A DNA stretch of 64,000 nt from Naegleria gruberi (GCA_000004985.1 GG738853.1), one strand, 5' to 3'; positions 20,155 through 63,868 are shown, counted from the stretch's first letter. Numbers and translations: made by a program. Notes: a model not told the origin generated them from the sequence alone.

Positions 20155-21803
20155 ATGCAGCAAGAATCGAACAGCGCACAGTTTCAGAATATATCATCTT
20201 CGGAATTGGAGCAAACGAGCACAACGTATGAGAGAAAAGAAGTGAAAATAATCGAATGGAAAGAATGGAAAATTGTCAAGTTTTTTAGAAGAGACAATAA
20301 AGAGAATGGAAATGGACCAAAACTTTACAAGATGAGGTGGATAATATTGCTGATTTTCGCGTTGGCAATGTTAAGTTCGTTTTTGGCTCAGTTGACTTTC
20401 TCTTCTCTTGGGTGAGTATATCGAATATTTCGAATTAAAGCTCATTTTAAATGAAACCATGAATGAAATTGAATTCTACCATTACAATCAGGGTAATTAT
20501 CATGCAGTATTATAAAATTCCACACCAGAATTGGAAAGTCAACATGATGAGTTTGATATTTCTTATAGTTCATCTTCCCTCTTCATTGATAGTGAGTTTC
20601 GTAATGAAACGTTTTGGATTAAGATGTTGCATGATCATATTCGGTTCACTAACATTTATTGGAATGTGGATTCGTTGTTTTGGCTATAAGAAAGGAGACG
20701 AAACCTATTTATGGATTGCATTTTGTGGCCAAACTTTCATTGCTTTTGCCCAACCATTCCTTACGAGCATTTCGGGTCTTTTGGGAGTAAATTGGTTTGG
20801 AGATAAGGAAAGAACACTGGTCCAAGTTGCAGCTCTACTTACGGCAGCTCTCGGAGGCGGAGTCGCATTTGCTATCGGACCTAGTTTAATTACGATGGGC
20901 AAGAGAGAAATGCATGGATCAGAGATTGGAATGCTAGCTTATTTATCTTCCCAGGCCTTTATTTCAACTGCTTGTTTATTGTTGATTGTTATTTTCTTTA
21001 AGGATCGACCACCAACTCCACCAGTACTAATTAAGGAAATTCAAACAATGGAGAAATTGGACGAAAACGAACAAATGTTAACAGAGGAGAGCAGATTGAC
21101 AATTAATTTGACCACTGATGACATCAATATCGAAAAAGGCTTTGAATCTTTCAATTCGAAAGATATTTATCCAGAACAAACTTTTTGGATAGGTTTTAAA
21201 AAGTTAATGACCTCTCCTCATTTCATAATGTTAACAATTTCATCATCCTGTCTGATTTCTGTCTTTCAAACAATGTCCATTCTCGATCAGATCATTAACC
21301 CAAAAGGTTACACCACCTTTGACACTGCAAATCTTAACATTGTCAATTTGGTATTTGTGGTATTTGGATGTTTTGGATTGAGTATTGTATTTGACAAGAC
21401 TAAACGTTTCAAATTGATTTCTTGCATCAGTAGCTTTATGGCATGTTTAGGATTTGCTTGTTTTGCCATTATCTTGCAATGGAACAAGTCAGATTTCACA
21501 ATAATTTTGGTTTATCTGTCAATGGTCGTTATCGGTTGTTCAGCCATTCCCAGTTTACCTCTAATTTCTCAAATGATAGTCTATTCAACCTATCCAATCC
21601 ATCCAGCAACAAGTCTTGTGATATCAAGTGCCTTCAGTACAATTTGGAATGTAATAATGTGGGTCATTGTAAATGTGCTACTGAGCGAGATGAGTAATTC
21701 ATCCAGTGTCATATTGTGGTTGAGCTTTGCGCTATTGATTGTTTCCTTTATAATGACTGTATTATTTAGAGGTAAATTCGATAATATTCTGGTCAATAAA
21801 TAG
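20155..21803 (+). CDS. MFS (major facilitator superfamily) transporter, FLVCR/MFSD7-like, 2 exons (20155-20411, 20492-21803)
   Basis: GTGAGT...AG intron of 80 nt joins ...LAQLTFSSLG to VIIMQYYK.... About 12 predicted TM helices. MFS loop motif WFGDKERTLVQVAA between TM2 and TM3. The upstream ATG choice (20155) is uncertain. Confidence 0.6.
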
Positions 21804-21888
21804 AAACTGTTCAAAGTTTATTTAGCCAAAGTTATACTTTGTTCATTCAACGTTTTTCGAAAATTGTAAATATGATGAAAATGTGTAA

Positions 21889-21977
21889 GGCGGCTTAGCA
21901 CAGTGGCAGTGCATCAGTCTTGTAGGCAGCAATGCTTAGATAACTGAGGGTCGAGGGTTCAATTCCCTCAGTCGCCT
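21889..21977 (+). tRNA. tRNA-Thr(UGU) with a 17-nt intron (anticodon assignment tentative)
   Basis: Cloverleaf: acceptor GGCGGCT/AGTCGCC; D-arm GCAC-AGTGGCA-GTGC; anticodon stem TCAGT/ACTGA with loop CTTGTA|intron GGCAGCAATGCTTAGAT|A; T-arm GAGGG-TTCAATT-CCCTC. TTTT terminator immediately 3'. Confidence 0.7.
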
Positions 21978-22047
21978 TTTGTATTGGTGATTGCCAAGAA
22001 AAACAAGCCTTAATTGTGAATAAGGGATATTTTCTTTTATCAATGTA

Positions 22048-22120
22048 TCCCCCTTAGCTCAGTCGGTAGAGCGTCAGACTGTTAATCTGCAGGTCGGTGG
22101 TTCGAGCCCACCAGGGGGAG
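22048..22120 (+). tRNA. tRNA-Asn(GUU)
   Basis: Acceptor TCCCCCT/AGGGGGA; D-arm GCTC-AGTCGGTA-GAGC; anticodon loop CTGTTAA; T-arm GGTGG-TTCGAGC-CCACC. T-rich terminator 3'. Confidence 0.8.
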
Positions 22121-22590
22121 TTGTTTTGTTTTTGTTTACTCTAAACTTTGAACTATATTTGATATTACGAATAAGCAGAATATTTCTGAAGGCCAATTGT
22201 TATTTTCAAACGAGATATCCCGTCTAGTTGAGCTGGAAAGCTCAAAAGAAGGGAATGTTAAACTAATAAGGATTGGACGTGATATTCCCGTTCCATGATT
22301 TTTTGCGAGTTAAAACCAGTTCCAAAATCAAGCGGTTGTACAAATCAGACAAGCTAACTGGATTTAAGCATACGAACCAACCTGAAAGAAATGTTTTCTA
22401 ATAGAACCTTCCATTGTAAGCTTTCCAGTATACTGAACATTAAAGATCTCAAAGTCTACTAAGTTGAATTACTATTGCAAATCACCATAATGATTGCTGA
22501 TGACATTGCTGCTACTACCACTCATTAAGTGTGTGATTAATTGTTGTTGATTTGTTGGAGAATCAGATAACACAATCAAAAAAACACAAC

Positions 22591-25500
22591 ATGTCTGGTA
22601 AACCAAGATATTCCACACTTGTGGAAATGCTCGAGCATGCAACACAAGAAAGAACATCCTCTCTCATTTACAGACAATTAGATTACTCCAATGATGTGGT
22701 GGGGGAGGAGAAGAAACTTTTCTCTGACTTATTGAAACCTTCAAGTATCAAGGAGATTAGTTATTGTGATTTCTTAAAGAAAGTGAAATCTCTCTCCACT
22801 CTCATTCAAACTCAAGCCAAAAGTGGTGATAGAGCTTTGCTAATCTTTGAACCAGGTATTAACTTTATTGCTGCTTTCTTTGCTACCTTGTTTGCTGGTG
22901 TTATTGCTGTACCTGTCTATCCTCCAAAGAACAAGGAAGAATTCAACAAGTTGAGTAAGATTCTGGCCGATTCTAAACCAAGTTTATTTCTGTTATCCAA
23001 GCTCATTCATCAAAACTTTGAGCAACATGGCATTAACAAGTTTTTTACCAAGATTAATTCTCAACAACATGTCGAGAATCAGGTAATACAAGATGTACTC
23101 AGTGGTTGTCTGGAAACTTATGAAGGTTTTAGTCTTTTGATTTCAGACGCGGTTGACTACAGTGATAAACAATTGTATACATATTGGAAACACCCAAACA
23201 TCGACACAGATTCGGTTGCTTTCCTCCAATATACCTCTGGATCAACCAGTGATCCAAAAGGTGTCATTCTCACTCATAGAAACCTTCTCAACAATCTTCA
23301 TGTTATGAACTATGCCCTACGATACTCTAATCAGAAACATGTTGTGCTCTGGCTTCCTCCTTACCATGACATGGGTTTAATTGCTGGTTTACTTGAAATT
23401 GTCTATTCGAATTGTAGTGCTACTGTATTATCTCCAATCTCCTTCCTGGAAAATCCATTACGTTGGATGTGGGCAATCAATGAATATAGAGCCACATTGC
23501 TGGGTGCTCCTAATTTTGGTTATGATCTCTGTGTAAAGCACTTTCTAGCTCATGAGAAGGAATACAGAGAAAGTTTTAAATTATTCGATTTTAGCAGTTT
23601 GGAAATTGTGGCATGTGGTGCAGAACCTATCAGAGCAGAAACTATGGAAAGTTTCAGTACACTCTTCTCTGAATTTGGATTGAAAAAACAAGCCATGTAT
23701 CCATGTTATGGATTGGCTGAGAGTACTCTCTATGTCACTGGTGTAAACTATATGAAAGGTTTCGACTTTACCACAATTGACAACAAGAACCAATACATTA
23801 TCAAGAATGGAACAGTCGAACAAACACAAACTCATCAAAAATTCGTTAATTGTGGTGTCAACTATGATGAAAATCAATCCATTAAAATTGTCGATCCAGA
23901 ATCTTCTACAGAAATGGAGAATGGAAAGGTTGGTGAAGTTTGGTTGTCAAGTCCAAGTGTCGCTCAAGGTTATTGGGAGAAACCAGAACTTTCTCAAGAG
24001 GTTTTCCATGCACGAGTGGTTGGAGATGATAGGGAGTATCTCAGAAGTGGAGATTTGGGTTTCATGTTGAATGGAAACTTGTACATTACTGGTCGTCGTA
24101 AGGATGTCATTATTTTGAATGGTGTGAATTATTATCCTCAAGATGTAGAATTGGCATGTTCTAAATGTCATGCACAGATTAGAACTGGGTGTGTGGTGGC
24201 TGTTAATATTGCTGATCGTGATGGACAGGATCGATTGGTGATAATTGCTGAAACTAAAGTTGTTTCGAATAGTGAGACACAAGTATTGGAGAGTATTGTA
24301 CAATCCATACGATCTGCAATTGCCGAATCGATGGGAATTCCAATGTATAATGCCCTATCGACCATCCTTCTCATGACTAAAGGAGGCATTCTCAAGACCA
24401 CAAGTGGTAAACTGAGACGTCAACCAACTAAACAAGCATTTCTCAATAACAAACTTCCTCCAAAACTAATCGTTCACAGATGGGATCAGGAGAAACTCTC
24501 AGATAGCGCTTCTCAACCAAGTACTCCAACAGAGATTGGATTGGCTAAAATTTGGAAAGAATTAACAGGAATTGATCCATCACTTTCGAATAACTTTTTC
24601 CTTTTGGGAGGAAGCTCTATGAGTTTGATTCAGCTAAAATCTAGAATCCAACATGTTTTCAATGTAATTATAAGTTTGACTGATTTGGTAATGTCGCCAA
24701 CATTGCAATTGATGGCTAAATTGGTCGATCAACACAGCAATCAATGTAATACTAGCTCTGTACAAATTTCAAAGAGAGAAAGGACAAGTGACACTTTAGA
24801 ATTATCAAACTCACAAACGAGATTCTGGTTCTTACATCACTTGATCGATAATCCTGCCATTCACAATGTTTTTGCAGGTGTTCGTTTGAAAGGTGACTTG
24901 GATAAACAAGCTTTAGAAAATTCCATTACCAAACTTGTAGAACGTCATGAAAGTTTACGTACAAGCTTTCAAGAAACAGAGATGTCACCAATGCAACACA
25001 TTCATTCTGAAATTTCTCTCAAATTAAATTCAATTAGTTTGAAACATCTCACTAGTGAAGAAGAAAAGAATTTGGAATTGAACAAGTTTCTCTTTGATGA
25101 GGTGAACGCACCATTCAACTTGAATGAAGCTCCTCTTCTCAGAGCTAACTTGATCGAAATGTCAGAGTGTGATCATGTTTTGGCCATGACTTTCCATCAT
25201 ATCATAATCGATGGATGGTCCATGAATTTACTTGTTGAAGAGCTAGTTCAATACTATCTGGCTTTTAAGAATCATCAATCGCCAATTCTTCCACAAGTTC
25301 TTCAATATGGTGATTACACACTGTGGAGCAATCAACAACAATCAATGAATGAAACTCAATTAAAATATTGGGAAGAAAAACTCTCCAATTTACCAGAATC
25401 TATCAAATTGCCAACAGAAGGCGAAAACTTATCCAAATCATTTGATGGATCTCATTTCTGGTTTGCAATCCCAGAAACTCTCGTTAACTCCTTAAGAAAG

Positions 25501-28020
25501 ATCGTTCAATCAAGAGGAGCCACACTCTACATGGGCATGTTAACTCTATTCAATATTTTACTGTACAGATATTCTGAACAGAATGATATTGCAATTGGAA
25601 CACCTGTTGTGAATAGACAGCAACATGTTGAGTTGGAAGCACTGATTGGACTCTTGGTAAATACTCTGGTGATTAGAAATAATGTGAATCCAGAGCATAA
25701 TTTCATTGAAACTTTGATGGAAATCAAGTCAACTGTAATTGAAGCTTTTGAAAATCAAGATGTTCCTTTCCAGAAAGTTGTAGAAAGATTGAAAGATTCA
25801 CGTAATTCAATGGAGAATCCACTTTTTCAAGTCATGATGGCCATGCACAACCCACAACGGAAAATTGTCATGGATAATCTTGAAACTGAGCTAGTTAGAG
25901 TTGACAATGGATCATCCATGTTTAATTTAACACTTGAATTACAAGAAATAGAGGATGGAAGTTTACAATGTTGTTTCGAATATAGAACTGATCTTTTCAA
26001 GAAGGAAACTATTGAAAGAATGGCTGGAAATCTTATTGAACTATTGAAATCAGCCACAACTGAATCGGATAACAAATCAATAAGCAAGTTGTCTTTCCTA
26101 TCGAATTCTGAAGTTGAAACTTTGAATAATTTTGGAAATATCACCAATAATGATCTCAGTTCTTCAGTTTCGAATAGATTATTACACGAACTCATTGAAG
26201 AGCAAGCTATCAAAACACCAGACAATACCGCCGTCTACTTCCAAGGTAAATCCTTCTCCTACCAACTTCTCGATCAAAAATCAGACCAATTAGCAAGGAG
26301 ATTACGAGATATGAATCACTCCAAAAATCCCTTCATTGCCATTAGCATTGACAGAAGCTTTGAATTGATTGTGAGTTTAGTTGCCATTCTCAAAGCTGGA
26401 TTTGCCTATCTCCCTCTCGATCCAAGCTATCCACAAGAACGATTACTCTACGTGCTTGATGATTCACAAGCAGGTCTGTTAATAACTCAATCTAATTATT
26501 CTGAAAAATTCAAAGACTATCAAGGGAAAGTGTTGTCTATTGATAGATTCGTTTGGTCAGCAAGTAGCACTTCCACATCCTCCATTAGTATTGAGAAACC
26601 ATTGACATCACCAAATGATTTGGCCTATCTCATTTACACTTCTGGCAGCACTGGAAATCCAAAAGGTGTCATGCTTTCTCACAGAAATGTAAACAATACT
26701 CTCAATGGTCTAATTAAATTGTACGAAATGAAGCAAGATGACAAGTTTATTCATTACAGCTCCTATAGCTTTGATGTTTCATTGGAAGAGATTTTCCTTC
26801 CACTAATTACAGGTGCTTCGATTATTGTGGCCAATCCAAATATTCAATATCAGTTGGAGGAGCTTGTTGACTTGGTTGAGCAAACGAAGGCAACAATCAT
26901 TGGTGTCACTCCAAGTTTGTGGCATGGTATAAGGTACCATGTTTTGAGGAATCCAAAATCAACTGAATCTTTAAGAATTGTCACTATTGGAAATGAACCT
27001 GTTGATTCGAATGCAGTCAAAGAAATCCAACAAATGTGTCCCAATGCAACAGTATTCAATGTATGTGGAGGAACAGAGACTTGCATTGATTGGTCTCTCT
27101 TCAAGGTTCCAAAAGATTATGCACCTTTACAACAAGTAGTTCCTATTGGAAAACCAATTCCTGGTGTCAAATTGTATGTTTTGGATTCGAATAGAGAGTT
27201 AGTTCCAATTGGAGTACCTGGAGAACTCTACGTTGGAGGAAATGGTGTTGGAAATGGATATTGGAAAAATAGTGAGCTAACCTCCAAGAGCTTTATTGAA
27301 AATCCATTCCAAACTAAAGACGAAAAACAGAACAATGTTAATGGAAAACTATTCAAAACAGGAGATTTGGTTAAATGGTTACCTGATGGAAATATGGTAT
27401 TCATCTCCAGATTGGATCATCAAGTGAAATTAAGAGGATTCAGAGTTGAATTGGGTGAAATTCAAAATGTCATGAGGAAGAGTGGTCTCGTCAGGGAGGC
27501 AATTGTGATTCTCCAAGATGATGAGAATGTCAGTAACAAACAACTTGTTGGATACATTGTGTGTAATGAGGGAGAAACTAGACCGCACTCAATCATCATA
27601 CAGCTAGTCAATTCCTACTTGGAGAAACATCTGCCATACTATATGATTCCATCTCATATCATTTGCATTGAAAAAGTTCCAACAACCAATAATGGAAAAT
27701 TGGATCGTAGAGCTTTACCAAGAGCAGTTGACCACCAGCAAACTAAAAGACTAGAAGAAAATATGGGAGAGGTCGATCCAGCTGATATTCCAGAGAGTCA
27801 TTGCAAGCTAAGACAAATTTGGTCCAAAGTACTCAAGATGAAGGAGGATTGCATTGGGTTGAGTGATAACTTTTTTGCAATTGGTGGAAATTCCATTCTC
27901 ATTGCCCAATTGAGAAGCATGGTTCGTACAGAGTTGGGTATTCAGTTAGAGTTGAAGACTTTCTTTGAAAAATTAACAATCCAATCTATGGCTACCCACA
28001 TTGAAACTGTTAGCCAATAA
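22591..28020 (+). CDS. non-ribosomal peptide synthetase, single module with lipo-initiation: FAAL - ACP - C - A - PCP, no terminal TE/R domain
   Basis: One uninterrupted ORF (the tool ORF begins at a TTG at 22552; the first ATG is 22591). FAAL-type N-terminus (RALLIFEPGINFIAAFFATLFAGVIAVPVYPP, YTSGSTSDPKGVILTHRNL). Carrier domain 1 with FFLLGGSSMSLIQL. Condensation domain with HHIIIDGWS. Adenylation core motifs LIYTSGSTGNPKGVMLSHRN, FDVS, NVCGGTETC, GELYVGGNGVGNGY, YKTGDLVKW, GRLDHQVKLRGFRVELGEIQ, LPYYMIPSHIICIEKVPTTNNGKLDRRAL. Carrier domain 2 with FFAIGGNSILIAQL. Stop follows directly. Confidence 0.9.
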   Translation: MSGKPRYSTLVEMLEHATQERTSSLIYRQLDYSNDVVGEEKKLFSDLLKPSSIKEISYCDFLKKVKSLSTLIQTQAKSGDRALLIFEPGINFIAAFFATLFAGVIAVPVYPPKNKEEFNKLSKILADSKPSLFLLSKLIHQNFEQHGINKFFTKINSQQHVENQVIQDVLSGCLETYEGFSLLISDAVDYSDKQLYTYWKHPNIDTDSVAFLQYTSGSTSDPKGVILTHRNLLNNLHVMNYALRYSNQKHVVLWLPPYHDMGLIAGLLEIVYSNCSATVLSPISFLENPLRWMWAINEYRATLLGAPNFGYDLCVKHFLAHEKEYRESFKLFDFSSLEIVACGAEPIRAETMESFSTLFSEFGLKKQAMYPCYGLAESTLYVTGVNYMKGFDFTTIDNKNQYIIKNGTVEQTQTHQKFVNCGVNYDENQSIKIVDPESSTEMENGKVGEVWLSSPSVAQGYWEKPELSQEVFHARVVGDDREYLRSGDLGFMLNGNLYITGRRKDVIILNGVNYYPQDVELACSKCHAQIRTGCVVAVNIADRDGQDRLVIIAETKVVSNSETQVLESIVQSIRSAIAESMGIPMYNALSTILLMTKGGILKTTSGKLRRQPTKQAFLNNKLPPKLIVHRWDQEKLSDSASQPSTPTEIGLAKIWKELTGIDPSLSNNFFLLGGSSMSLIQLKSRIQHVFNVIISLTDLVMSPTLQLMAKLVDQHSNQCNTSSVQISKRERTSDTLELSNSQTRFWFLHHLIDNPAIHNVFAGVRLKGDLDKQALENSITKLVERHESLRTSFQETEMSPMQHIHSEISLKLNSISLKHLTSEEEKNLELNKFLFDEVNAPFNLNEAPLLRANLIEMSECDHVLAMTFHHIIIDGWSMNLLVEELVQYYLAFKNHQSPILPQVLQYGDYTLWSNQQQSMNETQLKYWEEKLSNLPESIKLPTEGENLSKSFDGSHFWFAIPETLVNSLRKIVQSRGATLYMGMLTLFNILLYRYSEQNDIAIGTPVVNRQQHVELEALIGLLVNTLVIRNNVNPEHNFIETLMEIKSTVIEAFENQDVPFQKVVERLKDSRNSMENPLFQVMMAMHNPQRKIVMDNLETELVRVDNGSSMFNLTLELQEIEDGSLQCCFEYRTDLFKKETIERMAGNLIELLKSATTESDNKSISKLSFLSNSEVETLNNFGNITNNDLSSSVSNRLLHELIEEQAIKTPDNTAVYFQGKSFSYQLLDQKSDQLARRLRDMNHSKNPFIAISIDRSFELIVSLVAILKAGFAYLPLDPSYPQERLLYVLDDSQAGLLITQSNYSEKFKDYQGKVLSIDRFVWSASSTSTSSISIEKPLTSPNDLAYLIYTSGSTGNPKGVMLSHRNVNNTLNGLIKLYEMKQDDKFIHYSSYSFDVSLEEIFLPLITGASIIVANPNIQYQLEELVDLVEQTKATIIGVTPSLWHGIRYHVLRNPKSTESLRIVTIGNEPVDSNAVKEIQQMCPNATVFNVCGGTETCIDWSLFKVPKDYAPLQQVVPIGKPIPGVKLYVLDSNRELVPIGVPGELYVGGNGVGNGYWKNSELTSKSFIENPFQTKDEKQNNVNGKLFKTGDLVKWLPDGNMVFISRLDHQVKLRGFRVELGEIQNVMRKSGLVREAIVILQDDENVSNKQLVGYIVCNEGETRPHSIIIQLVNSYLEKHLPYYMIPSHIICIEKVPTTNNGKLDRRALPRAVDHQQTKRLEENMGEVDPADIPESHCKLRQIWSKVLKMKEDCIGLSDNFFAIGGNSILIAQLRSMVRTELGIQLELKTFFEKLTIQSMATHIETVSQ

Positions 28021-56867: not shown

Positions 56868-58017
56868 ATGAGCAACAATAGCAACAATAATTCAGATGAT
56901 GCTTCAATCAGGAAGCAACTGTGGGAAGGTTCAATACCAAGTGTAATCAACATTAAATCTGAACACATAACGTCTTTTCAACAGCCTTTCCCATATTTTG
57001 TAAGTGTTTTCATTCCGATCATTAATTGTTTGGGGCAATAATTATCTAGACAATGATTCCTAGACATTCATATTTATCTTTACTGATCGATAAAGTCAAA
57101 TCGCATTATTCTGAATTTTCAGGATTTGATAGTGATCAATTATGGTTTAGTTTCAATACTATTGCTATGCAATGGCACGTACCAGCTGGAGTTTTATATG
57201 ATTTGATGTATATCTTGGATCCGAATAGTATGTATTTGATTGGAAATAATAATAACAATAATTATATAACTAATAATTTGATGATGGTGAAATTATAATA
57301 TTTAAATAATATAACAACAATGATATGTTGTGCATTTACTAAATGTTGATTGATCAAATTATATTAATATAATTTTAATAATATTTAACAAAACATGAAA
57401 ACTAAATAGCACTTAAATTACCTTGGTCATTAACAGCAAATTTTGGAGCTTTTCCAGCAGATACTGTCATTCGTTGTAGTAATGAAGAGGATGCTCAGTG
57501 GAATTATCTCAACAATATTAAAGAGTGCATGTATATTCGTTTCAACTCTACATCAGCCATGATGACTTTTAGTAATGAGGATCAAAAGGAATTATGGTCA
57601 GCTGTAAAGAGTCAAAACGAACAAGTATTTTGCAAACTTTTCGAAAAGATTAAACTTGGAGCTAAAATTGCTTCCATTGATGATATGGTTTATGCCATTA
57701 GAATTTACACACCACTCAAAAAGGATTCTAATAGCTCTGTAAATTTAACAGATGATTCAAAGAAGAAGGATGTATTAAAATATAAGAAGAATATGATATG
57801 TTTAAAGAGAGACCAAGCTAAACAACTTGATTTACAAACATTCTTAAACAATCATGTTATTCCTCAATTAACCAAAGGTGGATATTTTGGAGATTGTGAA
57901 ACCAAGATTGACCGAGTTGTCATTCAAGGTGTCGAACCTTCCAAGGAAACTGAAATGTTATGGCTCTTTGAAAATTGTGCTCATCCAGATGGTTTCTTAT
58001 ACATGTGTTGTAAATAA
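56868..58017 (+). CDS. ATG5: autophagy protein ATG5, 3 exons (56868-56999, 57050-57227, 57410-58017)
   Basis: Spliced product aligns with ATG5 along its length: KQLWEGSIP, PRHSYLSLLIDKVK, WHVPAGVLYDL, LPWSLTANFGAFP, QKELW, VVIQGVEPSKETEMLW. Introns GTAAGT...AG are 50 nt and GTATGT...AG 182 nt. Confidence 0.8.
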
Positions 58018-58338: not shown

Positions 58339-60660
58339 ATGTCAACATCCTTGTTATTGTTGGTGGATCAATTGACAACATTTTACGGAAAGAAACTTTT
58401 AAACGATCATTATGCTCTCACCTATTTAGATAATAATTACTATTCATTGGCTTTCATTGGAGTCATGTTATGTTTGGTGTGGGGAGTTTTAATTACTGCG
58501 CCAATTCATATCATTTCTTGGGTTTTGTATTTTGTGGGTGCTAGGAAATCATCATCATTAAATTCATCATCTTTTGGAATTGATGATGATGATGAGGAGG
58601 ATGTTGTTGGAAGTTCTGGTTTTGGTGGTCAGAAACAACCTTCCCTAAAGAAACAAATTGAAAAGAGTAGAAAATTCGGAAAGGTTTTTAATGTCTTGAC
58701 AAGTGTTTCATCATTTGTTTGGTGTTTGTTTGCTTCTTACTTTTTGGTGCTTGTTTCTACATTTTCTAGAGCTCATTATATTTTGACAGCTTTGGTGATT
58801 ACTATTATGTGGTCTGTTTGGTTGATTAATAGTTTTGTTTTGGATTTAAAGTGGATTATTGTTATGATTTATTATAGACTTGTCAAGAAGGTTGATTTGA
58901 CAAGTGTCAGCACATCATCTAGTCAAATGATTCAAGAATCACAAGAATTGGCTGATGATGGTGAAGCACTTTTGGAAGATAACTCTTCTGGTTTACAAAG
59001 AAGACCACAATCTTCATCAAAATTAGATCCAAAGAAAGCAGTTACTGTTACTCGTTCCTTGCTTTTGGATTCATCAAAACCATACATTTCTAGAAAGCCA
59101 ATTCTTGCTGTCATTTTGATTGTTATTGCTACTACAATTATTCTCATTGTTTCTGTCATGACAACTTTCATCTTTGCTGATATTTGTATTGCCTATGATC
59201 CTATTGAAATTTCTACACATTTCACTCGTACTGTCTTGTCAAATGGCAAGTGTGAAAGAGATACTGTCTGTTATTCTTATTTGACAGTTCCAGAAAAGAT
59301 GGATCATCAAATGATTGTCAATTTCCAACTCTATACTTATGAATTCTATAAGGGCTTTGTTGAATATAAGAGATTCGATCCAGCTGATGAAGATTTTGAT
59401 CCAAAAGATGTTGAATTCAATGAATATCATCAAGCCAGTTGCTTTAAATTGGATAATATTGAAGAAGAAAGCAGATATCAATGTTTTGCTGAATTGACTG
59501 ATTTGAAACCTGGTTCTTCTTATATTCTTCGTGCTGGTTATTCTGCATCTGAAAGTACTGATGCTCATGATTTCCACTACGATAATGAATATCTCAAATT
59601 TAGAACAATTCCATCAGAGGATGATTCCTCCAAGATTGTTTCATTCATTAATGGAGGTGATTTGGCATGGAGAGGACCAACCTATGCTCTCTCCAAAGCT
59701 GTCAATACTTTGGGATATGGAAATGTAGATAATGCTCCATATTTCGCTATTGTTGGTGGTGATATTGCCTATGAAAATGGATGTGCCTACTGTTATAGAA
59801 GATGGGACGATTGGTTCTTGAATTGGAATAAGTTTATGAAGACAACTGTTCAATACGATTCTGATAATTCTACCATTCATCAATATACACTTCCAATTTT
59901 GACAACTGTTGGTAATCATGAAGGTGGTAATTTCAAGAGACCTAGATCAGATGATGCATTCTATATTAGATTATTCCCAATGTCAATTAGTGGAGCAACT
60001 GAAAAGATTGTTTCTGATCCACAAACTACAAGAAAATTGCAACACGTCCACTATCTCTCCAAGCATACCATGATTGTTGCATTGGACAGTTGGGTTCACG
60101 AATCTCCACAAGACCAAATTGAATACTTGACCAATCTCTTTGAAAAATCAGTCACTGCAGGAACCTACAAGAATCGTTTCATTATTATTCACCATCCAAT
60201 GTATACTTCAGGTAGTGTTGGAGACATTGATAAGGAAATGATTGCCAAATGGGAATCCCTCTTCCAAAAGTATGGTATTACAGCAGTTTTTGAAAATCAC
60301 GTTCATACCTACAAGCAAACTTATCCAATTCGTGATGGTAAGGTTGTAACAAAGACCAGTGAACAAACTGATTCAACATCTGTTGCATTCAGTTACAAGA
60401 GAGAATCTGCTGACAATAGCAAGGACGGAATTATGTATTTCGGAGATGGAAGTTGGGGAGTTACCTATTGGAATGCTTCCTTGAGAAAGAGCAGTGGACT
60501 CTTCAGACAAATTGGAGTTTTGAGTCATGTCTATCATGTCAAATGTAGATCATTATCGAATGCTATTTCATTCACTGAATTGTATGCTCTTGGATATAAT
60601 TCTACAACTGGAGCTGTTTCTGAATTTGGTAAATCTCGTGTCAGAATTGAAGTTCACTAA
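58339..60660 (+). CDS. membrane-anchored purple-acid-phosphatase-like metallophosphoesterase
   Basis: 773-aa single-exon ORF. About 4 N-terminal TM helices, then an Fn3-like segment. Metallophosphatase motifs GGDLAW, GGDIAYENG, GNHEGG, IIIHHPMY and ENHVHTY. Confidence 0.65.
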   Translation: MSTSLLLLVDQLTTFYGKKLLNDHYALTYLDNNYYSLAFIGVMLCLVWGVLITAPIHIISWVLYFVGARKSSSLNSSSFGIDDDDEEDVVGSSGFGGQKQPSLKKQIEKSRKFGKVFNVLTSVSSFVWCLFASYFLVLVSTFSRAHYILTALVITIMWSVWLINSFVLDLKWIIVMIYYRLVKKVDLTSVSTSSSQMIQESQELADDGEALLEDNSSGLQRRPQSSSKLDPKKAVTVTRSLLLDSSKPYISRKPILAVILIVIATTIILIVSVMTTFIFADICIAYDPIEISTHFTRTVLSNGKCERDTVCYSYLTVPEKMDHQMIVNFQLYTYEFYKGFVEYKRFDPADEDFDPKDVEFNEYHQASCFKLDNIEEESRYQCFAELTDLKPGSSYILRAGYSASESTDAHDFHYDNEYLKFRTIPSEDDSSKIVSFINGGDLAWRGPTYALSKAVNTLGYGNVDNAPYFAIVGGDIAYENGCAYCYRRWDDWFLNWNKFMKTTVQYDSDNSTIHQYTLPILTTVGNHEGGNFKRPRSDDAFYIRLFPMSISGATEKIVSDPQTTRKLQHVHYLSKHTMIVALDSWVHESPQDQIEYLTNLFEKSVTAGTYKNRFIIIHHPMYTSGSVGDIDKEMIAKWESLFQKYGITAVFENHVHTYKQTYPIRDGKVVTKTSEQTDSTSVAFSYKRESADNSKDGIMYFGDGSWGVTYWNASLRKSSGLFRQIGVLSHVYHVKCRSLSNAISFTELYALGYNSTTGAVSEFGKSRVRIEVH

Positions 60661-61413: not shown

Positions 61414-62352
61414 TTACAAAATTGAATAAATAATCAAAATACAAATCAACAATCCATAACTCAACACTCCAATCGATTCAACTCCACTAGTAGCTGGCAT
61501 TTTCTTTGTAAAAATCGAAACTGGCAATGGATCACCAAAAACTTTCATATAACAATTCACACATTCCTTATGATCATTCATCCAACTGTACACATCAATA
61601 GCATCGAATAGAATAGCATGTACTTGTTTAGTTTCTGCAAATGAAAACATTGCATTCATTGTAGAGCCAGGATATTTCTGGACTAAAGATAAACTGTTGT
61701 TCATGACTTGATCGAATAAAGTTCCTTTCCACCAAGCAACTTTGACATCTGCTCTGTTGAGTTGATCTAAAGTGGTAATTCCAGTTATGGTTGTGTTATC
61801 GAGGTCAGTTCTCATGAATGTGAAATAGGTAGTTCCATAAGAGCATGTAGTAAACGAAACTTGTTCACTTCTGGCAGTTGACAAGGCAGTATCAGAAACT
61901 ACAATATCACATGCACCAGAATTAATCCCACCCAACAAGGAAGGAAAATATCCACTGGTTGTATTAATCGAAAGATATTCGATTCCTAACGAAAGTGAAT
62001 ACTTCTTATTTAGATTAGCAACTAAACCCTTTGCAACCAATTTATAAACAGTCAACCACAAATTAGTTGAACTTGTTTGAAGCTCTGAACAAATCGTTAA
62101 TTTCGTGATATTAGAAGGTAAAGGATTTTTCGTTGGATAATTTGCAGTTTCTTTACAATATGGAACGACGAAAGGAACACCCAATGATGTAACTTGTTTC
62201 TGGAAGGTTGTATCTTGTGCTAATTCTGTCATGGCTGCGTCTACTGCGCTAGTCCAAGCAGCAGAAGCAACTGATGGGTCTGAAGTGACAACTGTCAGGT
62301 GGCAGATAATACAAATGACAAGGAAAATGAGGGTTGATTTGAGTTCTGGCAT
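61414..62352 (-). CDS. secreted/GPI-type protein with a bacterial periplasmic solute-binding-protein family-3 (SBP_bac_3 / iGluR ligand-binding-like) domain
   Basis: Start taken at M25 (62352), which gives signal peptide MPELKSTLIFLVICIICHLTVV. Core GACDIVVSDTALSTARSEQVSFTTCSYGTTYFTFMR resembles the amino-acid-binding PBP fold. C-terminal hydrophobic tail. Confidence 0.5.
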   Translation of the reverse strand: MPELKSTLIFLVICIICHLTVVTSDPSVASAAWTSAVDAAMTELAQDTTFQKQVTSLGVPFVVPYCKETANYPTKNPLPSNITKLTICSELQTSSTNLWLTVYKLVAKGLVANLNKKYSLSLGIEYLSINTTSGYFPSLLGGINSGACDIVVSDTALSTARSEQVSFTTCSYGTTYFTFMRTDLDNTTITGITTLDQLNRADVKVAWWKGTLFDQVMNNSLSLVQKYPGSTMNAMFSFAETKQVHAILFDAIDVYSWMNDHKECVNCYMKVFGDPLPVSIFTKKMPATSGVESIGVLSYGLLICILIIYSIL

Positions 62353-63037: not shown

Positions 63038-63868
63038 TTAAACTTGCATGATGGGAGGAGTAGACGAATCTTCCATTGTTGATTTTAATTCTTTTGAATC
63101 CAAATTCGAATCAGAAACATTCAATTCAGAAATTTGATTTTCCAATTCCTTAATTGCATTAGTTTGTTCCTTCATACAGCTTTCTAATTGCAAGAGTTGA
63201 TGCTTTGATTGAGTTAATTCATTGATTAGTCTAGTTTCCTTCTCAACATAAACTTTCTGAAATTCGAATTGTTCCAAATCCAATATGTTTTTCAATTCTT
63301 CCACTTGTTTTCTGTATTGTTCCAACTCTAAATCCTGAACTAGCTCTTCTGTCTGAATGTCAATATTTTTTCTTGACACTTCTCTTGATCGAATAAAATT
63401 CAATAAACCAAAGAAGAGTTTCTTCTGAATTCTAATAGTCTTGTTCAATTCTTCTTGTTTCACTCTAAATTCAACAGTATTTTGTTTCATCTTACTTTCC
63501 ACATTCGAAACTAAATTTTGCATATCACTGTACATTTTCGTACTTTCTCTTTCCATTCTATTCTTCAAATCTTCCTTCTCATCCATCAATTCTTTAATCT
63601 TTTCGTTTAATTCGTCCACTTTCTCGTTATACTTTTTAAGGAAGGCATCACGACACTTAATTTGTACAGATGCGCATTTCTCTTCGAATTCCTTCATGCA
63701 CAATTCTATTTTTTCAGTCTTTTCTTGATCCATCTTTTCGTAATGTTTCTTCATCATTCGTTCTCTTTCTTTAAACTCCCTTCTTGTGTTGGCATACTTG
63801 TGCATGATATCTTCTACTTGACGTTTCACATAGTCCATTCTCACATAGACAATTCCACCTACTACCAT
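63038..63868 (-). CDS. coiled-coil protein (may continue beyond the listed start)
   Basis: 276-aa ORF dominated by E/K/L heptads. Upstream exons cannot be excluded. Confidence 0.4.
   Translation of the reverse strand: MVVGGIVYVRMDYVKRQVEDIMHKYANTRREFKERERMMKKHYEKMDQEKTEKIELCMKEFEEKCASVQIKCRDAFLKKYNEKVDELNEKIKELMDEKEDLKNRMERESTKMYSDMQNLVSNVESKMKQNTVEFRVKQEELNKTIRIQKKLFFGLLNFIRSREVSRKNIDIQTEELVQDLELEQYRKQVEELKNILDLEQFEFQKVYVEKETRLINELTQSKHQLLQLESCMKEQTNAIKELENQISELNVSDSNLDSKELKSTMEDSSTPPIMQV

What the first reader, a model, noticed from the sequence alone, without database searches (positions are those of the whole stretch)
61414..62352. Stand-alone periplasmic-binding-protein (SBP_bac_3-like) domain with signal peptide and GPI-like tail
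The core GACDIVVSDTALSTARSEQVSFTTCSYGTTYFTFMR resembles bacterial family-3 amino-acid-binding proteins, which are also the evolutionary source of iGluR ligand-binding domains. Here it appears as a small secreted protein with an N-terminal signal peptide and a C-terminal hydrophobic anchor. It lacks a channel or 7TM moiety. It could be a free amino-acid or ligand sensor, or a receptor precursor.
Basis: partly seen in the sequence, partly recalled or inferred. Interest (0 to 1): 0.5.

Follow-up and report, generated by a model that had tools for sequence, protein, structure and literature searches.

The report
GPI-anchored, circularly permuted amino-acid-binding protein
This Naegleria gruberi gene encodes a small cell-surface protein built from a rearranged bacterial-type amino-acid-binding "Venus flytrap" domain, probably lipid-anchored to the membrane, which most likely lets the amoeba sense or capture an amino-acid-like molecule outside the cell.

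Summary
Window 61414-62352 (minus strand) is an intact, intron-free 312-codon gene in a Naegleria gruberi genome window. It encodes a signal peptide, a single type-II periplasmic-binding-protein (PBP) domain and a terminal hydrophobic tail with GPI-signal features. There is no channel, 7TM or other domain.

The Pfam SBP_bac_3 hit is sub-threshold, but other evidence places it among polar-amino-acid binding proteins:
- a family profile matches them at E 7e-25;
- the AlphaFold model has pLDDT 92;

The Arg and Asp that hold the ligand's alpha-carboxylate and alpha-ammonium in GlnBP are conserved (R161, D250).

- The domain is circularly permuted. The canonical C-terminal helices sit at the N-terminus.
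- Cysteine co-variation implies three disulfides.
- It belongs to a multi-paralogue family across Heterolobosea. The same permuted module is the ectodomain of receptor kinases in an amoebozoan.

The gene has no counterpart among the N. gruberi proteins in the database searched. dN/dS is about 0.15.

The closest functional analogue is Entamoeba EhVFT, a PBP1-type protein shown experimentally to be GPI-anchored. I classify this as a new variant of a known kind. Ligand and signalling partner are unknown.

The parts
61414..62352 (-). Complete single-exon CDS (312 codons plus TAA stop) of the permuted SBP-like surface protein
   Evidence: The DNA is 99% identical to metagenome contig L001, where the same 312-aa gene is called. 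dN/dS is about 0.15.
62281..62352 (-). Signal peptide, residues 1-24 (MPELK, hydrophobic core 7-23, VTS|DP)
   Evidence: Hydropathy scan. N-terminal hydrophobic segments are present in most family members. Orthologue P0002 has an in-frame upstream Met plus signal peptide. No trained predictor was run.
62185..62262 (-). Two N-terminal helices (residues 31-56), equivalent to the C-terminal helices of canonical SBPs: the permuted element
   Evidence: Model helices 31-45 and 48-56, pLDDT about 97. The family profile aligns this block to the last ~30 residues of 4zv1, 5eyf and 5jos. A 37-position profile of this block alone hits only amino-acid SBPs, all at their C-terminal end, 23 of 23. The un-permuted profile aligns co-linearly over 192 columns against 148 for the native order.
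62104..62184 (-). Linker loop (residues 57-83) joining the relocated helices to strand beta-1. It carries C66 and the invariant Y72-P73.
   Evidence: Model loop. C66 is present in 34/35 and P73 in 35/35 members. C66 co-varies with C170.
61837..62103 (-). Lobe 1 core (residues 84-172): beta-1, helix 98-118, beta-2, F136, C148-D149, the S153-D154-T155-A156 loop, R161 (codon 61870-61872) and the F-T-T-C170 motif
   Evidence: Secondary structure. Mapping to E. coli GlnBP: F136=F50, S153-A156=A67-T70, R161=R75. Conservation: R161 34/35, F136 30/35.
61537..61827 (-). Lobe 2 (residues ~176-272): conserved DNTT glycosylation sequon (N186), G210-T211-L212 ligand loop, W208, F249, D250 (codon 61603-61605) and the C264-x-x-C267 hairpin
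   Evidence: Mapping to GlnBP: W208=K115, G210/T211/L212=G117/T118/G119, F249=H156, D250=D157. Conservation: G210 29/35, T/S211 33/35, D/E250 30/35.
61498..61536 (-). Return strand into lobe 1 (residues 273-285, GDPLPVSIFTKK), the last element of the fold. No C-terminal helices follow.
   Evidence: Model strand 268-283. Consensus FGxPxxxGxFT. Aligned to the GlnBP 'YGIAFPKG' strand in the un-permuted hhalign.
61474..61497 (-). Small-residue region (residues 286-293, MPATSGVE) with candidate GPI omega site (A287, omega+2 = S289)
   Evidence: Rule-based scan. All 27 family members with a hydrophobic end have such candidates. No trained GPI predictor was available.
61417..61473 (-). C-terminal hydrophobic tail (residues 294-312, IGVLSYGLLICILIIYSIL) ending the protein. 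Proposed GPI-attachment signal, removed on anchoring.
   Evidence: Hydropathy. Of 35 members, 27 have a hydrophobic last 15 residues, 24 of them with no charged residue. Distant relatives with true TM anchors instead carry a basic cytoplasmic tail.

Best explanation
The gene encodes a secreted, N-glycosylated, disulfide-stapled Venus-flytrap protein held on the outer face of the Naegleria plasma membrane by a GPI anchor. Its single domain is a type-II periplasmic-binding-protein fold derived from bacterial polar-amino-acid binding proteins, but it is circularly permuted. The helices that normally end the fold come first, so the fold finishes with a beta-strand of lobe 1 that leads straight into the anchor signal.

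An alpha-amino-acid-like ligand binds in the cleft between the lobes. Its carboxylate is held by R161 and the G210-T211-L212 loop. Its ammonium group is held by D250. Its side chain sits in a largely aromatic pocket (F136, W208, F249). Binding closes the two lobes.

The protein has no cytoplasmic part. The closed, ligand-bound form must therefore be read by a separate membrane protein, acting as a co-receptor that reports extracellular amino acids or prey-derived compounds.

Shown here: the ORF, the fold, the permutation, the conserved contact residues, the conserved signal and tail architecture, and purifying selection.

Inferred: actual GPI attachment, ligand class, lobe closure and the signalling partner.

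For: Ligand residues: mapping to GlnBP, with main-chain-binding positions conserved and side-chain positions variable among paralogues.

Secretory and anchor features are conserved.

Extracellular adaptation: six near-invariant Cys co-vary as C66-C170, C88-C148 and C264-C267. All nine deviating sequences that lose C66/C170 or C88/C148 lose them as a pair; five single or joint losses were seen at C264/C267. There are four N-x-S/T sequons.

Sensor role: the same permuted module is followed by a TM segment and a protein kinase in Cavostelium apophysatum P0153 and metagenomic P0132.

Precedent: Entamoeba EhVFT is a stand-alone VFT protein shown experimentally to be GPI-anchored and needed for motility and phagocytosis (PMC12965686).
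Against: - No ligand, anchor or expression data exist for this protein.
- GPI signal features were judged by simple rules, not a trained predictor.
- The Pfam hit is below threshold.
- One GlnBP carboxylate contact is not conserved (T70 aligns with A156).
- D250 is replaced by S or P in 5 of 35 members.
- No candidate partner lies next to the gene, and synteny is not conserved.
- I could not inspect model coordinates. Helix placement and disulfide geometry are therefore inferred from sequence statistics.
Confidence: 0.55

Rival explanations
1. Nutrient-capture receptor rather than sensor. The GPI-anchored binder concentrates a scarce amino acid or vitamin-like compound at the surface and delivers it by endocytosis or to a secondary transporter. 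This would resemble the GPI-anchored folate receptor or trypanosome nutrient receptors (my own knowledge).
For: Same structural evidence as the best explanation. Its ancestors are transporter-associated SBPs, and the nearest bacterial hits are SBD-permease fusions. Naegleria feeds by phagocytosis and pinocytosis (my own knowledge).
Against: No ABC permease or other transporter gene is adjacent. The homologous module is wired to kinases in other amoebae, which points to signalling. Many paralogues with diversified pocket residues fit a sensor repertoire at least as well.
Confidence: 0.2
2. The C-terminal hydrophobic segment is a permanent single-pass membrane anchor with no cytoplasmic tail, not a cleaved GPI signal. 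Everything else is as in the best explanation.
For: The tail is 17-19 residues, long enough to span a membrane. No GPI predictor or experiment was available. Some distant relatives are clearly TM-anchored (P0133, P0137).
Against: Relatives with real TM anchors carry a basic stop-transfer tail (RRKK, RQRRNYDGI, KRRR). This protein and 24 of 35 relatives end inside an uncharged hydrophobic stretch preceded by small residues, the classical GPI-signal layout. Entamoeba EhVFT has the same layout and was shown to be GPI-anchored.
Confidence: 0.15
3. A surface-coat or adhesion protein that has kept the fold but no longer binds a small ligand.
For: It is a multi-copy GPI-type family. The ligand of the analogous EhVFT could not be found.
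Against: The Arg, Asp and G-T loop positions that contact the ligand backbone in GlnBP are the best-conserved non-cysteine residues of the family. That pattern is not expected if the cleft were unused.
Confidence: 0.07
4. An enzyme of the cyclohexadienyl-dehydratase type, which evolved from this SBP clade.
For: CDT and ancestral CDT reconstructions are among the best sequence and structure hits.
Against: The top hit, AncCDT-1, is a non-catalytic amino-acid binder (PMC7683729). The alpha-ammonium Asp and alpha-carboxylate Arg of binders are retained. A GPI-anchored extracellular prephenate dehydratase has no obvious substrate. Catalytic-residue mapping was not done.
Confidence: 0.02

Closest known systems
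Bacterial polar-amino-acid solute-binding proteins (Pfam SBP_bac_3; GlnH/GlnBP, HisJ, LAOBP, ArtJ, reconstructed AncCDT-1 and AncQR)
   Different: - Eukaryotic.
- Circularly permuted: C-terminal helices moved to the N-terminus.
- Three inferred disulfides and N-glycosylation sequons.
- GPI-type tail instead of a free periplasmic protein or lipoprotein.
- No ABC transporter genes nearby.
- Below the Pfam gathering score.
Entamoeba histolytica EhVFT (CL6EHI_096680), PMC12965686
   Same: A stand-alone Venus-flytrap/PBP protein of an amoeba with a signal peptide, no TM or 7TM domain, and a C-terminal hydrophobic GPI signal. GPI anchoring and surface exposure were shown experimentally. It is implicated in motility and phagocytosis. 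Bacterial origin is suspected and the ligand is unknown.
   Different: EhVFT is a PBP1 / ANF-receptor-type (LIVBP-like) fold of about 43 kDa. The Naegleria protein is PBP2 / SBP_bac_3-type, smaller and permuted. They are different supergroups (Amoebozoa versus Heterolobosea), so the architectures arose independently.
Ionotropic glutamate receptor ligand-binding domains (GluR0, AvGluR1, GluN1, plant GLR3.4)
   Different: No pore domain is inserted between S1 and S2, there is no Lig_chan or Lig_chan-Glu_bd Pfam hit, and there is no internal TM. iGluR LBDs are not permuted.
Plasmodium falciparum PfVFT1 (PDB 5jkq)
   Different: No detectable sequence similarity. No membrane anchor has been identified in PfVFT1. 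Whether it shares the permuted topology could not be checked.
VFT/SBP-coupled receptors: amoebozoan SBP-TM-kinase proteins (P0153 Cavostelium, P0132), invertebrate Venus kinase receptors, bacterial BvgS
   Different: Those proteins carry their own transmembrane and cytoplasmic output domain. The Naegleria protein has none. VKRs use a PBP1-type VFT.

Membership tests
SBP_bac_3 / polar-amino-acid solute-binding proteins (type-II PBP, cluster F) | Bilobed type-II PBP fold with two crossovers between the lobes | tested here: met
SBP_bac_3 / polar-amino-acid solute-binding proteins (type-II PBP, cluster F) | Scores above the Pfam PF00497 gathering threshold | tested here: not met
   21.6 bits against a cut-off of 26.4, covering only residues 113-182. 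Paralogues carry precomputed weak PF00497 hits. The family profile nevertheless matches SBPs at 7e-25.
SBP_bac_3 / polar-amino-acid solute-binding proteins (type-II PBP, cluster F) | Canonical order of elements: beta-1 at the N-terminus and the helical 'x-a-L-x-x-l-x-x-d-G-x-y-x-x-i-x-x-k-W' segment at the C-terminus | tested here: not met
   That segment is at the N-terminus (residues 31-56) and nothing follows the last strand. The domain is circularly permuted.
SBP_bac_3 / polar-amino-acid solute-binding proteins (type-II PBP, cluster F) | Arg binding the ligand alpha-carboxylate and Asp binding the alpha-ammonium (GlnBP R75, D157) | tested here: met
   R161 and D250 align to them. R161 is present in 34/35 and D/E250 in 30/35 family members.
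SBP_bac_3 / polar-amino-acid solute-binding proteins (type-II PBP, cluster F) | Works with an ABC importer, usually encoded alongside | tested here: not met
   No BPD_transp_1 or ABC genes were found among the neighbours scanned. The setting is eukaryotic: ATG5, Forkhead, FHA and arrestin genes.
SBP_bac_3 / polar-amino-acid solute-binding proteins (type-II PBP, cluster F) | Binds an amino acid with lobe closure | not testable with these tools
   Needs a binding assay or a liganded structure.
Ionotropic glutamate receptors | LBD split by a pore-forming transmembrane domain (Lig_chan) | tested here: not met
   No internal hydrophobic segment. No Lig_chan or Lig_chan-Glu_bd hit. The ORF is bounded by neighbouring genes.
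GPI-anchored proteins | N-terminal ER signal peptide | tested here: met
   Hydrophobic core 7-23 after a charged n-region, with small residues at -3/-1. Conserved in the family. This was judged by rules; SignalP was not available.
GPI-anchored proteins | C-terminal signal: small omega/omega+2 residues, short polar spacer, uncharged hydrophobic end with no cytoplasmic residues | tested here: met
   A287-T-S289, spacer GVESIG, then a hydrophobic run to the last residue. The same layout occurs in 24-27 of 35 relatives.
GPI-anchored proteins | Actual transamidation and lipid anchoring | not testable with these tools
   Needs PI-PLC release, metabolic labelling or a trained predictor such as NetGPI.
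EhVFT-type GPI-anchored VFT receptors (Entamoeba) | PBP1 / ANF-receptor-type fold with the class-C 8-residue amino-acid motif | tested here: not met
   All top structural and sequence matches are type-II SBPs. The resemblance is in architecture (signal peptide, VFT, GPI signal), not in family.

The most novel reading that the evidence does not exclude
The permuted module arose once, from the junction of two tandem substrate-binding domains of a bacterial SBD-permease fusion acquired by horizontal transfer. It then became an independent eukaryotic chemoreceptor system: GPI-anchored co-receptors with diversified pockets in Heterolobosea, and ectodomains of receptor kinases in Amoebozoa. That would be a further, separate recruitment of the PBP fold into eukaryotic signalling, besides iGluRs, class-C GPCRs and ANF receptors, and Venus kinase receptors. 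It would also give a handle on how free-living and pathogenic Naegleria detect amino acids or prey.
Probability: 0.3. Interest if true: 0.7.

Novelty: new variant of a known kind. Interest (0 to 1): 0.5.

Why it matters
How amoebae such as Naegleria, including the brain-eating N. fowleri which has paralogues, sense nutrients and prey is poorly understood. A family of surface-anchored amino-acid-binding modules gives concrete candidates that can be expressed and screened for ligands.

It also matters for protein evolution. It is a natural circular permutation of the SBP fold, stabilised by a disulfide that ties the new linker to the core. The same module appears both lipid-anchored and fused to kinases. 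That illustrates how a bacterial transport component can be converted into eukaryotic receptor hardware, in parallel with the origin of iGluR ligand-binding domains.

Practically, the gene appears to be missing from the N. gruberi protein set.

Tried and rejected
- First AF2 run with only 6 sequences gave pLDDT 50.6 and was discarded. The 35-sequence alignment fixed this.
- Foldseek against AFDB50, wanted for taxonomic spread, was not available.
- The word-indexed search with the family alignment added little: 10 hits with the candidate cap reached.
- Exact-product look-ups for the target, four neighbours and the N. gruberi arrestin all returned nothing. N. gruberi gene positions seem not to be indexed, so the annotated gene models at this locus could not be viewed.
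- Scoring a hand-permuted GlnBP against the family HMM was uninformative, because HMMER split it into two local hits either way. The hhalign test with re-ordered profile columns was used instead.
- A profile of the N-terminal third, aimed at a sequence link to PfVFT1, found none. The weak Lassa GP2 hits (E about 0.5) are treated as chance.
- The PfVFT1 structure paper is not held.
- Literature searches for Naegleria plus solute-binding or GPI, SBP_bac_3 in eukaryotes, and circularly permuted SBPs found no description of this family.
- Rejected readings: iGluR or GPCR fragment (no extra exons or TM), bacterial contamination (eukaryotic neighbours, Naegleria paralogues), pseudogene (dN/dS about 0.15).

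Full report
**What is there.** On the minus strand, window 61414-62352 holds an uninterrupted ORF of 312 codons (ATG 62350-62352, TAA 61414-61416). A hydropathy scan shows only two hydrophobic segments. One is at the N-terminus (residues 7-23, after MPELK, followed by VTS|DP). The other is at the very C-terminus (residues 294-312), which ends the protein without a single charged residue. The mature part carries four N-x-S/T sequons and six cysteines.

**Genomic setting.** The window has about 33% GC and is densely packed with long intron-poor ORFs. These encode eukaryotic domains: ATG5, Forkhead, FHA, arrestin, PH, CH and BTB. The arrestin ORF at 4109-5131 is 100% identical to a Naegleria gruberi predicted protein, so the window is N. 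gruberi.

**Annotation status.** No N. gruberi protein resembling the target closely is in the protein collection. The best match is a 99%-identical protein from a metagenome (P0001). The best named match is a 34%-identical N. lovaniensis protein. The gene therefore seems to be unannotated in N. gruberi. The caveat is that I could not view the gene models at the locus.

**Is it a real gene, and is it complete?**
- The metagenome contig L001 is about 99% identical in DNA and carries the same 312-codon gene and the same downstream neighbour. Within the CDS there are 4 synonymous and 2 non-synonymous differences.
- Nei-Gojobori dN/dS is 0.14 against L001 and 0.16 against the 67%-identical orthologue P0002. 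dS is near saturation for P0002.
- P0002's called start is internal, but an in-frame upstream Met followed by a signal peptide is present.
- The N. lovaniensis homologue is a single-exon gene of 333 codons with the same layout.
- The next gene upstream on the same strand ends at 63038, and the protein starts with its own signal peptide.

There is thus no room or need for upstream exons encoding a channel or 7TM part. tblastn finds no paralogue elsewhere in the window.

**Fold.** Pfam gives only a sub-threshold SBP_bac_3 hit (E 1.9e-4, 21.6 bits against a 26.4 cut-off, residues 113-182), and NCBIfam only traces. A 6-sequence profile already reaches AncCDT-1 and AncQR in the PDB at 2e-7.

An exhaustive profile search of 1.84 billion representatives found 245 relatives, 104 of them below 1e-10. 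With 35 full-length members (A2):
- the profile hits AncCDT-1 at 7e-25 and 205 PDB chains at E<0.01, all amino-acid SBPs, CDTs, iGluR LBDs or SBP-type sensor domains among the 60 listed;
- AlphaFold2 rose from pLDDT 50.6 with 6 sequences to 92.3, pTM 0.83;
- Foldseek against the PDB returns ligand-bound AncCDT-1 (E 1.9e-13), a Trp-binding SBP, ArgBP, AncQR, GlnBP, the Cys-binding protein and GluR0;

The model fits closed, liganded structures (rmsd 2-3 Å) much better than apo ones (rmsd 5.6-8 Å). The PBP-fold prediction that could have refuted the finding is clearly positive.

**Circular permutation.** In the profile-versus-PDB alignments, the family's N-terminal block does not match the N-terminus of SBPs. 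This block has the consensus ..F.qAidaAl.elv.d..f...... and forms model helices 31-45 and 48-56. It matches the last ~30 residues of SBPs instead: 4zv1 203-230 of 233, 5eyf 205-235 of 245, 5jos 216-244 of 247.

A 37-position profile of this block alone, searched against all 177,635 PDB sequences, returns 23 hits. Every one is a polar-amino-acid SBP (GlnP SBDs, LAOBP, HisJ, 5eyf, AncQR), and every match lies at the extreme C-terminal helix. The individual E-values are weak (0.03-1.5), but the specificity is complete.

More distant family members show the canonical motif almost verbatim at their N-termini, for example LRTAISAALKEVMANSEWDTIYYKWF and ILNLSLNTLKNNGKLQSILNKY.

I then re-ordered the family alignment columns into the canonical order (core 81-286 followed by block 26-60). 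I compared this with a profile of 89 sequences (88 bacterial SBDs and GlnBP):

| Column order | hhalign score | Aligned columns | Alignment ends at template column |
|---|---|---|---|
| Native | 136.7 | 148 | 176 of 232 |
| Core only | 136.9 | 142 | 176 of 232 |
| Un-permuted | 146.6 | 192 | 226 of 232 |

In this protein the fold ends with the lobe-1 return strand (residues 268-283), which runs directly into the anchor signal. The order helix, linker, 'gtl..il..g.l..c' beta-1 is what one sees at the junction of two tandem SBDs. This suggests origin by duplication and truncation. The nearest bacterial hits are indeed 3-7-fold tandem SBD-permease fusions, but their rank may simply reflect summed domain scores. 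That step is inference.

**Disulfides.** Six cysteines are nearly invariant. Of the 50 relatives in which all six positions aligned:
- 40 have all six;
- 7 lack C88 and C148 together while keeping C66 and C170;
- 2 lack C66 and C170 together while keeping C88 and C148.

Losses at C264/C267 occur singly in three sequences (P0011, P0084, P0153) and jointly in two (P0104, P0132), overlapping the groups above.

This implies C66-C170, C88-C148 and a C264-x-x-C267 hairpin. C66-C170 staples the permutation-created linker to the F-T-C-x-Y segment of the core. I could not check the geometry because model coordinates are not exposed.

**Ligand site.** Aligning E. coli GlnBP to the family HMM gives the equivalences below.

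| GlnBP residue | This protein | Family conservation |
|---|---|---|
| R75 | R161 | 34/35 |
| D157 | D250 | D/E 30/35 |
| G117-T118-G119 | G210-T211-L212 | G210 29/35; T/S211 33/35 |
| K115 | W208 | variable |
| H156 | F249 | variable |
| A67-G68-I69-T70 | S153-D154-T155-A156 | 154 and 156 variable |
| F50 | F136 | 30/35 |

The residues that grip the amino-acid backbone are the most conserved non-cysteine positions. Positions that face the side chain (89, 154, 156, 208, 209, 249) vary among paralogues. This is the pattern expected for a repertoire of amino-acid-type binders with different specificities.

In this particular protein the side-chain pocket is largely aromatic (F136, W208, F249). 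From this I infer, weakly, a hydrophobic or aromatic ligand.

**Anchor.** The tail layout is A287-T-S289, then the spacer GVESIG, then an uncharged hydrophobic run to the end. Of the 35 aligned members, 27 have a hydrophobic last 15 residues, 24 of these have no charge, and all 27 have omega-site candidates. The rest are truncated models. Distant relatives that are truly transmembrane end instead with basic tails: P0133 ...VVLRRKK, P0137 ...RQRRNYDGI, P0153 ...KRRR followed by a kinase. No trained GPI predictor could be run, so anchoring remains a strong prediction, not a result.

**Family and distribution.** Named members come from:
- N. fowleri (FDP41_000021, FDP41_012477);
- N. lovaniensis (at least C9374_005968, _002535, _002538, _008685, _008029, some in tandem or within 10 kb of each other);
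- N. gruberi (NAEGRDRAFT_68554, 28% identical, apparently a fused model of two tandem copies);
- Willaertia magna (three genes);
- the transcriptome of Heterolobosea sp. BB2.

One soil metagenome sample yields an orthologue and two paralogues on contigs with eukaryotic genes (TAF8, EPL1, CENP-T).

The same permuted module, with its N-terminal helix motif, is followed by a TM segment and a Tyr/Ser-Thr kinase in Cavostelium apophysatum (Amoebozoa, P0153) and in P0132. In P0123 it is followed by NIDO and EGF repeats. UniProt auto-labels some Naegleria members 'Solute-binding protein family 3/N-terminal domain-containing protein'. I found no paper describing them.

**Mechanism.** The shown facts are a secreted, cleft-containing binding domain with intact amino-acid-backbone contacts, tethered by a predicted lipid anchor and lacking any output domain. 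The most economical mechanism is ligand-induced lobe closure read out by a separate membrane protein, that is, a co-receptor.

Two observations favour sensing over mere uptake. First, homologous modules are hard-wired to kinases in other amoebae. Second, Entamoeba EhVFT is an unrelated PBP1-type stand-alone VFT with the same signal-peptide, VFT, GPI-signal layout. It was shown to be GPI-anchored and surface-exposed, and it is required for normal motility and phagocytosis. Its ligand and partner are still unknown (PMC12965686).

A nutrient-capture role, a permanent TM anchor, a ligand-less coat protein and a CDT-like enzyme are the rivals, in decreasing order of plausibility. No partner gene is evident nearby. 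The neighbours are a 161-aa protein of unknown function, a coiled-coil protein and a 773-aa membrane protein with metallophosphoesterase-like motifs. The neighbours differ in N. lovaniensis.

**Comparison and novelty.** By fold and sequence, the protein belongs to the SBP_bac_3 / polar-amino-acid SBP superfamily. It fails three of that family's usual features: the Pfam threshold, the canonical topology and transporter association. It is not an iGluR (no pore domain). It is not a member of the EhVFT family (different PBP class), although it probably works like it.

I therefore rate this a new variant of a known kind. The elements are known: SBP fold, GPI-anchored VFT in an amoeba. The combination of permuted type-II SBP, disulfide staple and GPI signal, its spread in Heterolobosea and its reuse in receptor kinases appear undescribed.

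Interest is moderate (0.5). A specialist would find it a neat and testable case rather than a shock.

Noticed in passing
window 20463-28020 (+): An 1822-aa NRPS-like ORF (AMP-binding, PP-binding, Condensation, AMP-binding, PP-binding) lies directly downstream of an MFS transporter ORF. This is a non-ribosomal peptide synthetase pair in a Naegleria genome, possibly of bacterial or fungal origin.
   Followed up: no
window 61414-62352 (-): The target gene has no close counterpart among N. gruberi proteins in the collection, although the window is N. gruberi (arrestin ORF 100% identical). It is probably an annotation gap in the N. gruberi gene set.
   Followed up: partly
window 58339-60660 (+): A 773-aa ORF with several N-terminal hydrophobic segments. 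By eye, its C-terminal half has metallophosphoesterase / purple-acid-phosphatase motifs (GDLAW, GGDIAYENG, VGNHE, HHPMY, NHVHTY). Pfam nevertheless returned no hit at E<=0.001.
   Followed up: no
P0007 (N. gruberi NAEGRDRAFT_68554, not in window): The 462-aa model matches the query twice: a 5'-truncated copy followed by a complete copy. It looks like two tandem paralogues merged into one gene model.
   Followed up: partly
P0153 (Cavostelium apophysatum), P0132, P0123 (not in window): The same permuted SBP module is the ectodomain of single-pass receptor kinases, and of a NIDO plus EGF-repeat protein, in other protists.
   Followed up: partly
L003 (N. lovaniensis PYSW02000026.1) 10001-11002 and 20398-21002: Two family paralogues lie within 10 kb, with G-alpha and RGS genes between or around them. 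C9374_002535 and _002538 are also three genes apart. This indicates local tandem expansion. The G-protein neighbours may be coincidence.
   Followed up: no
window 57529-58017 (+): The ORF covers only the helical-bundle and UblB parts of ATG5. The N-terminal part is presumably on an upstream exon, so this gene, unlike the target, is likely spliced.
   Followed up: no
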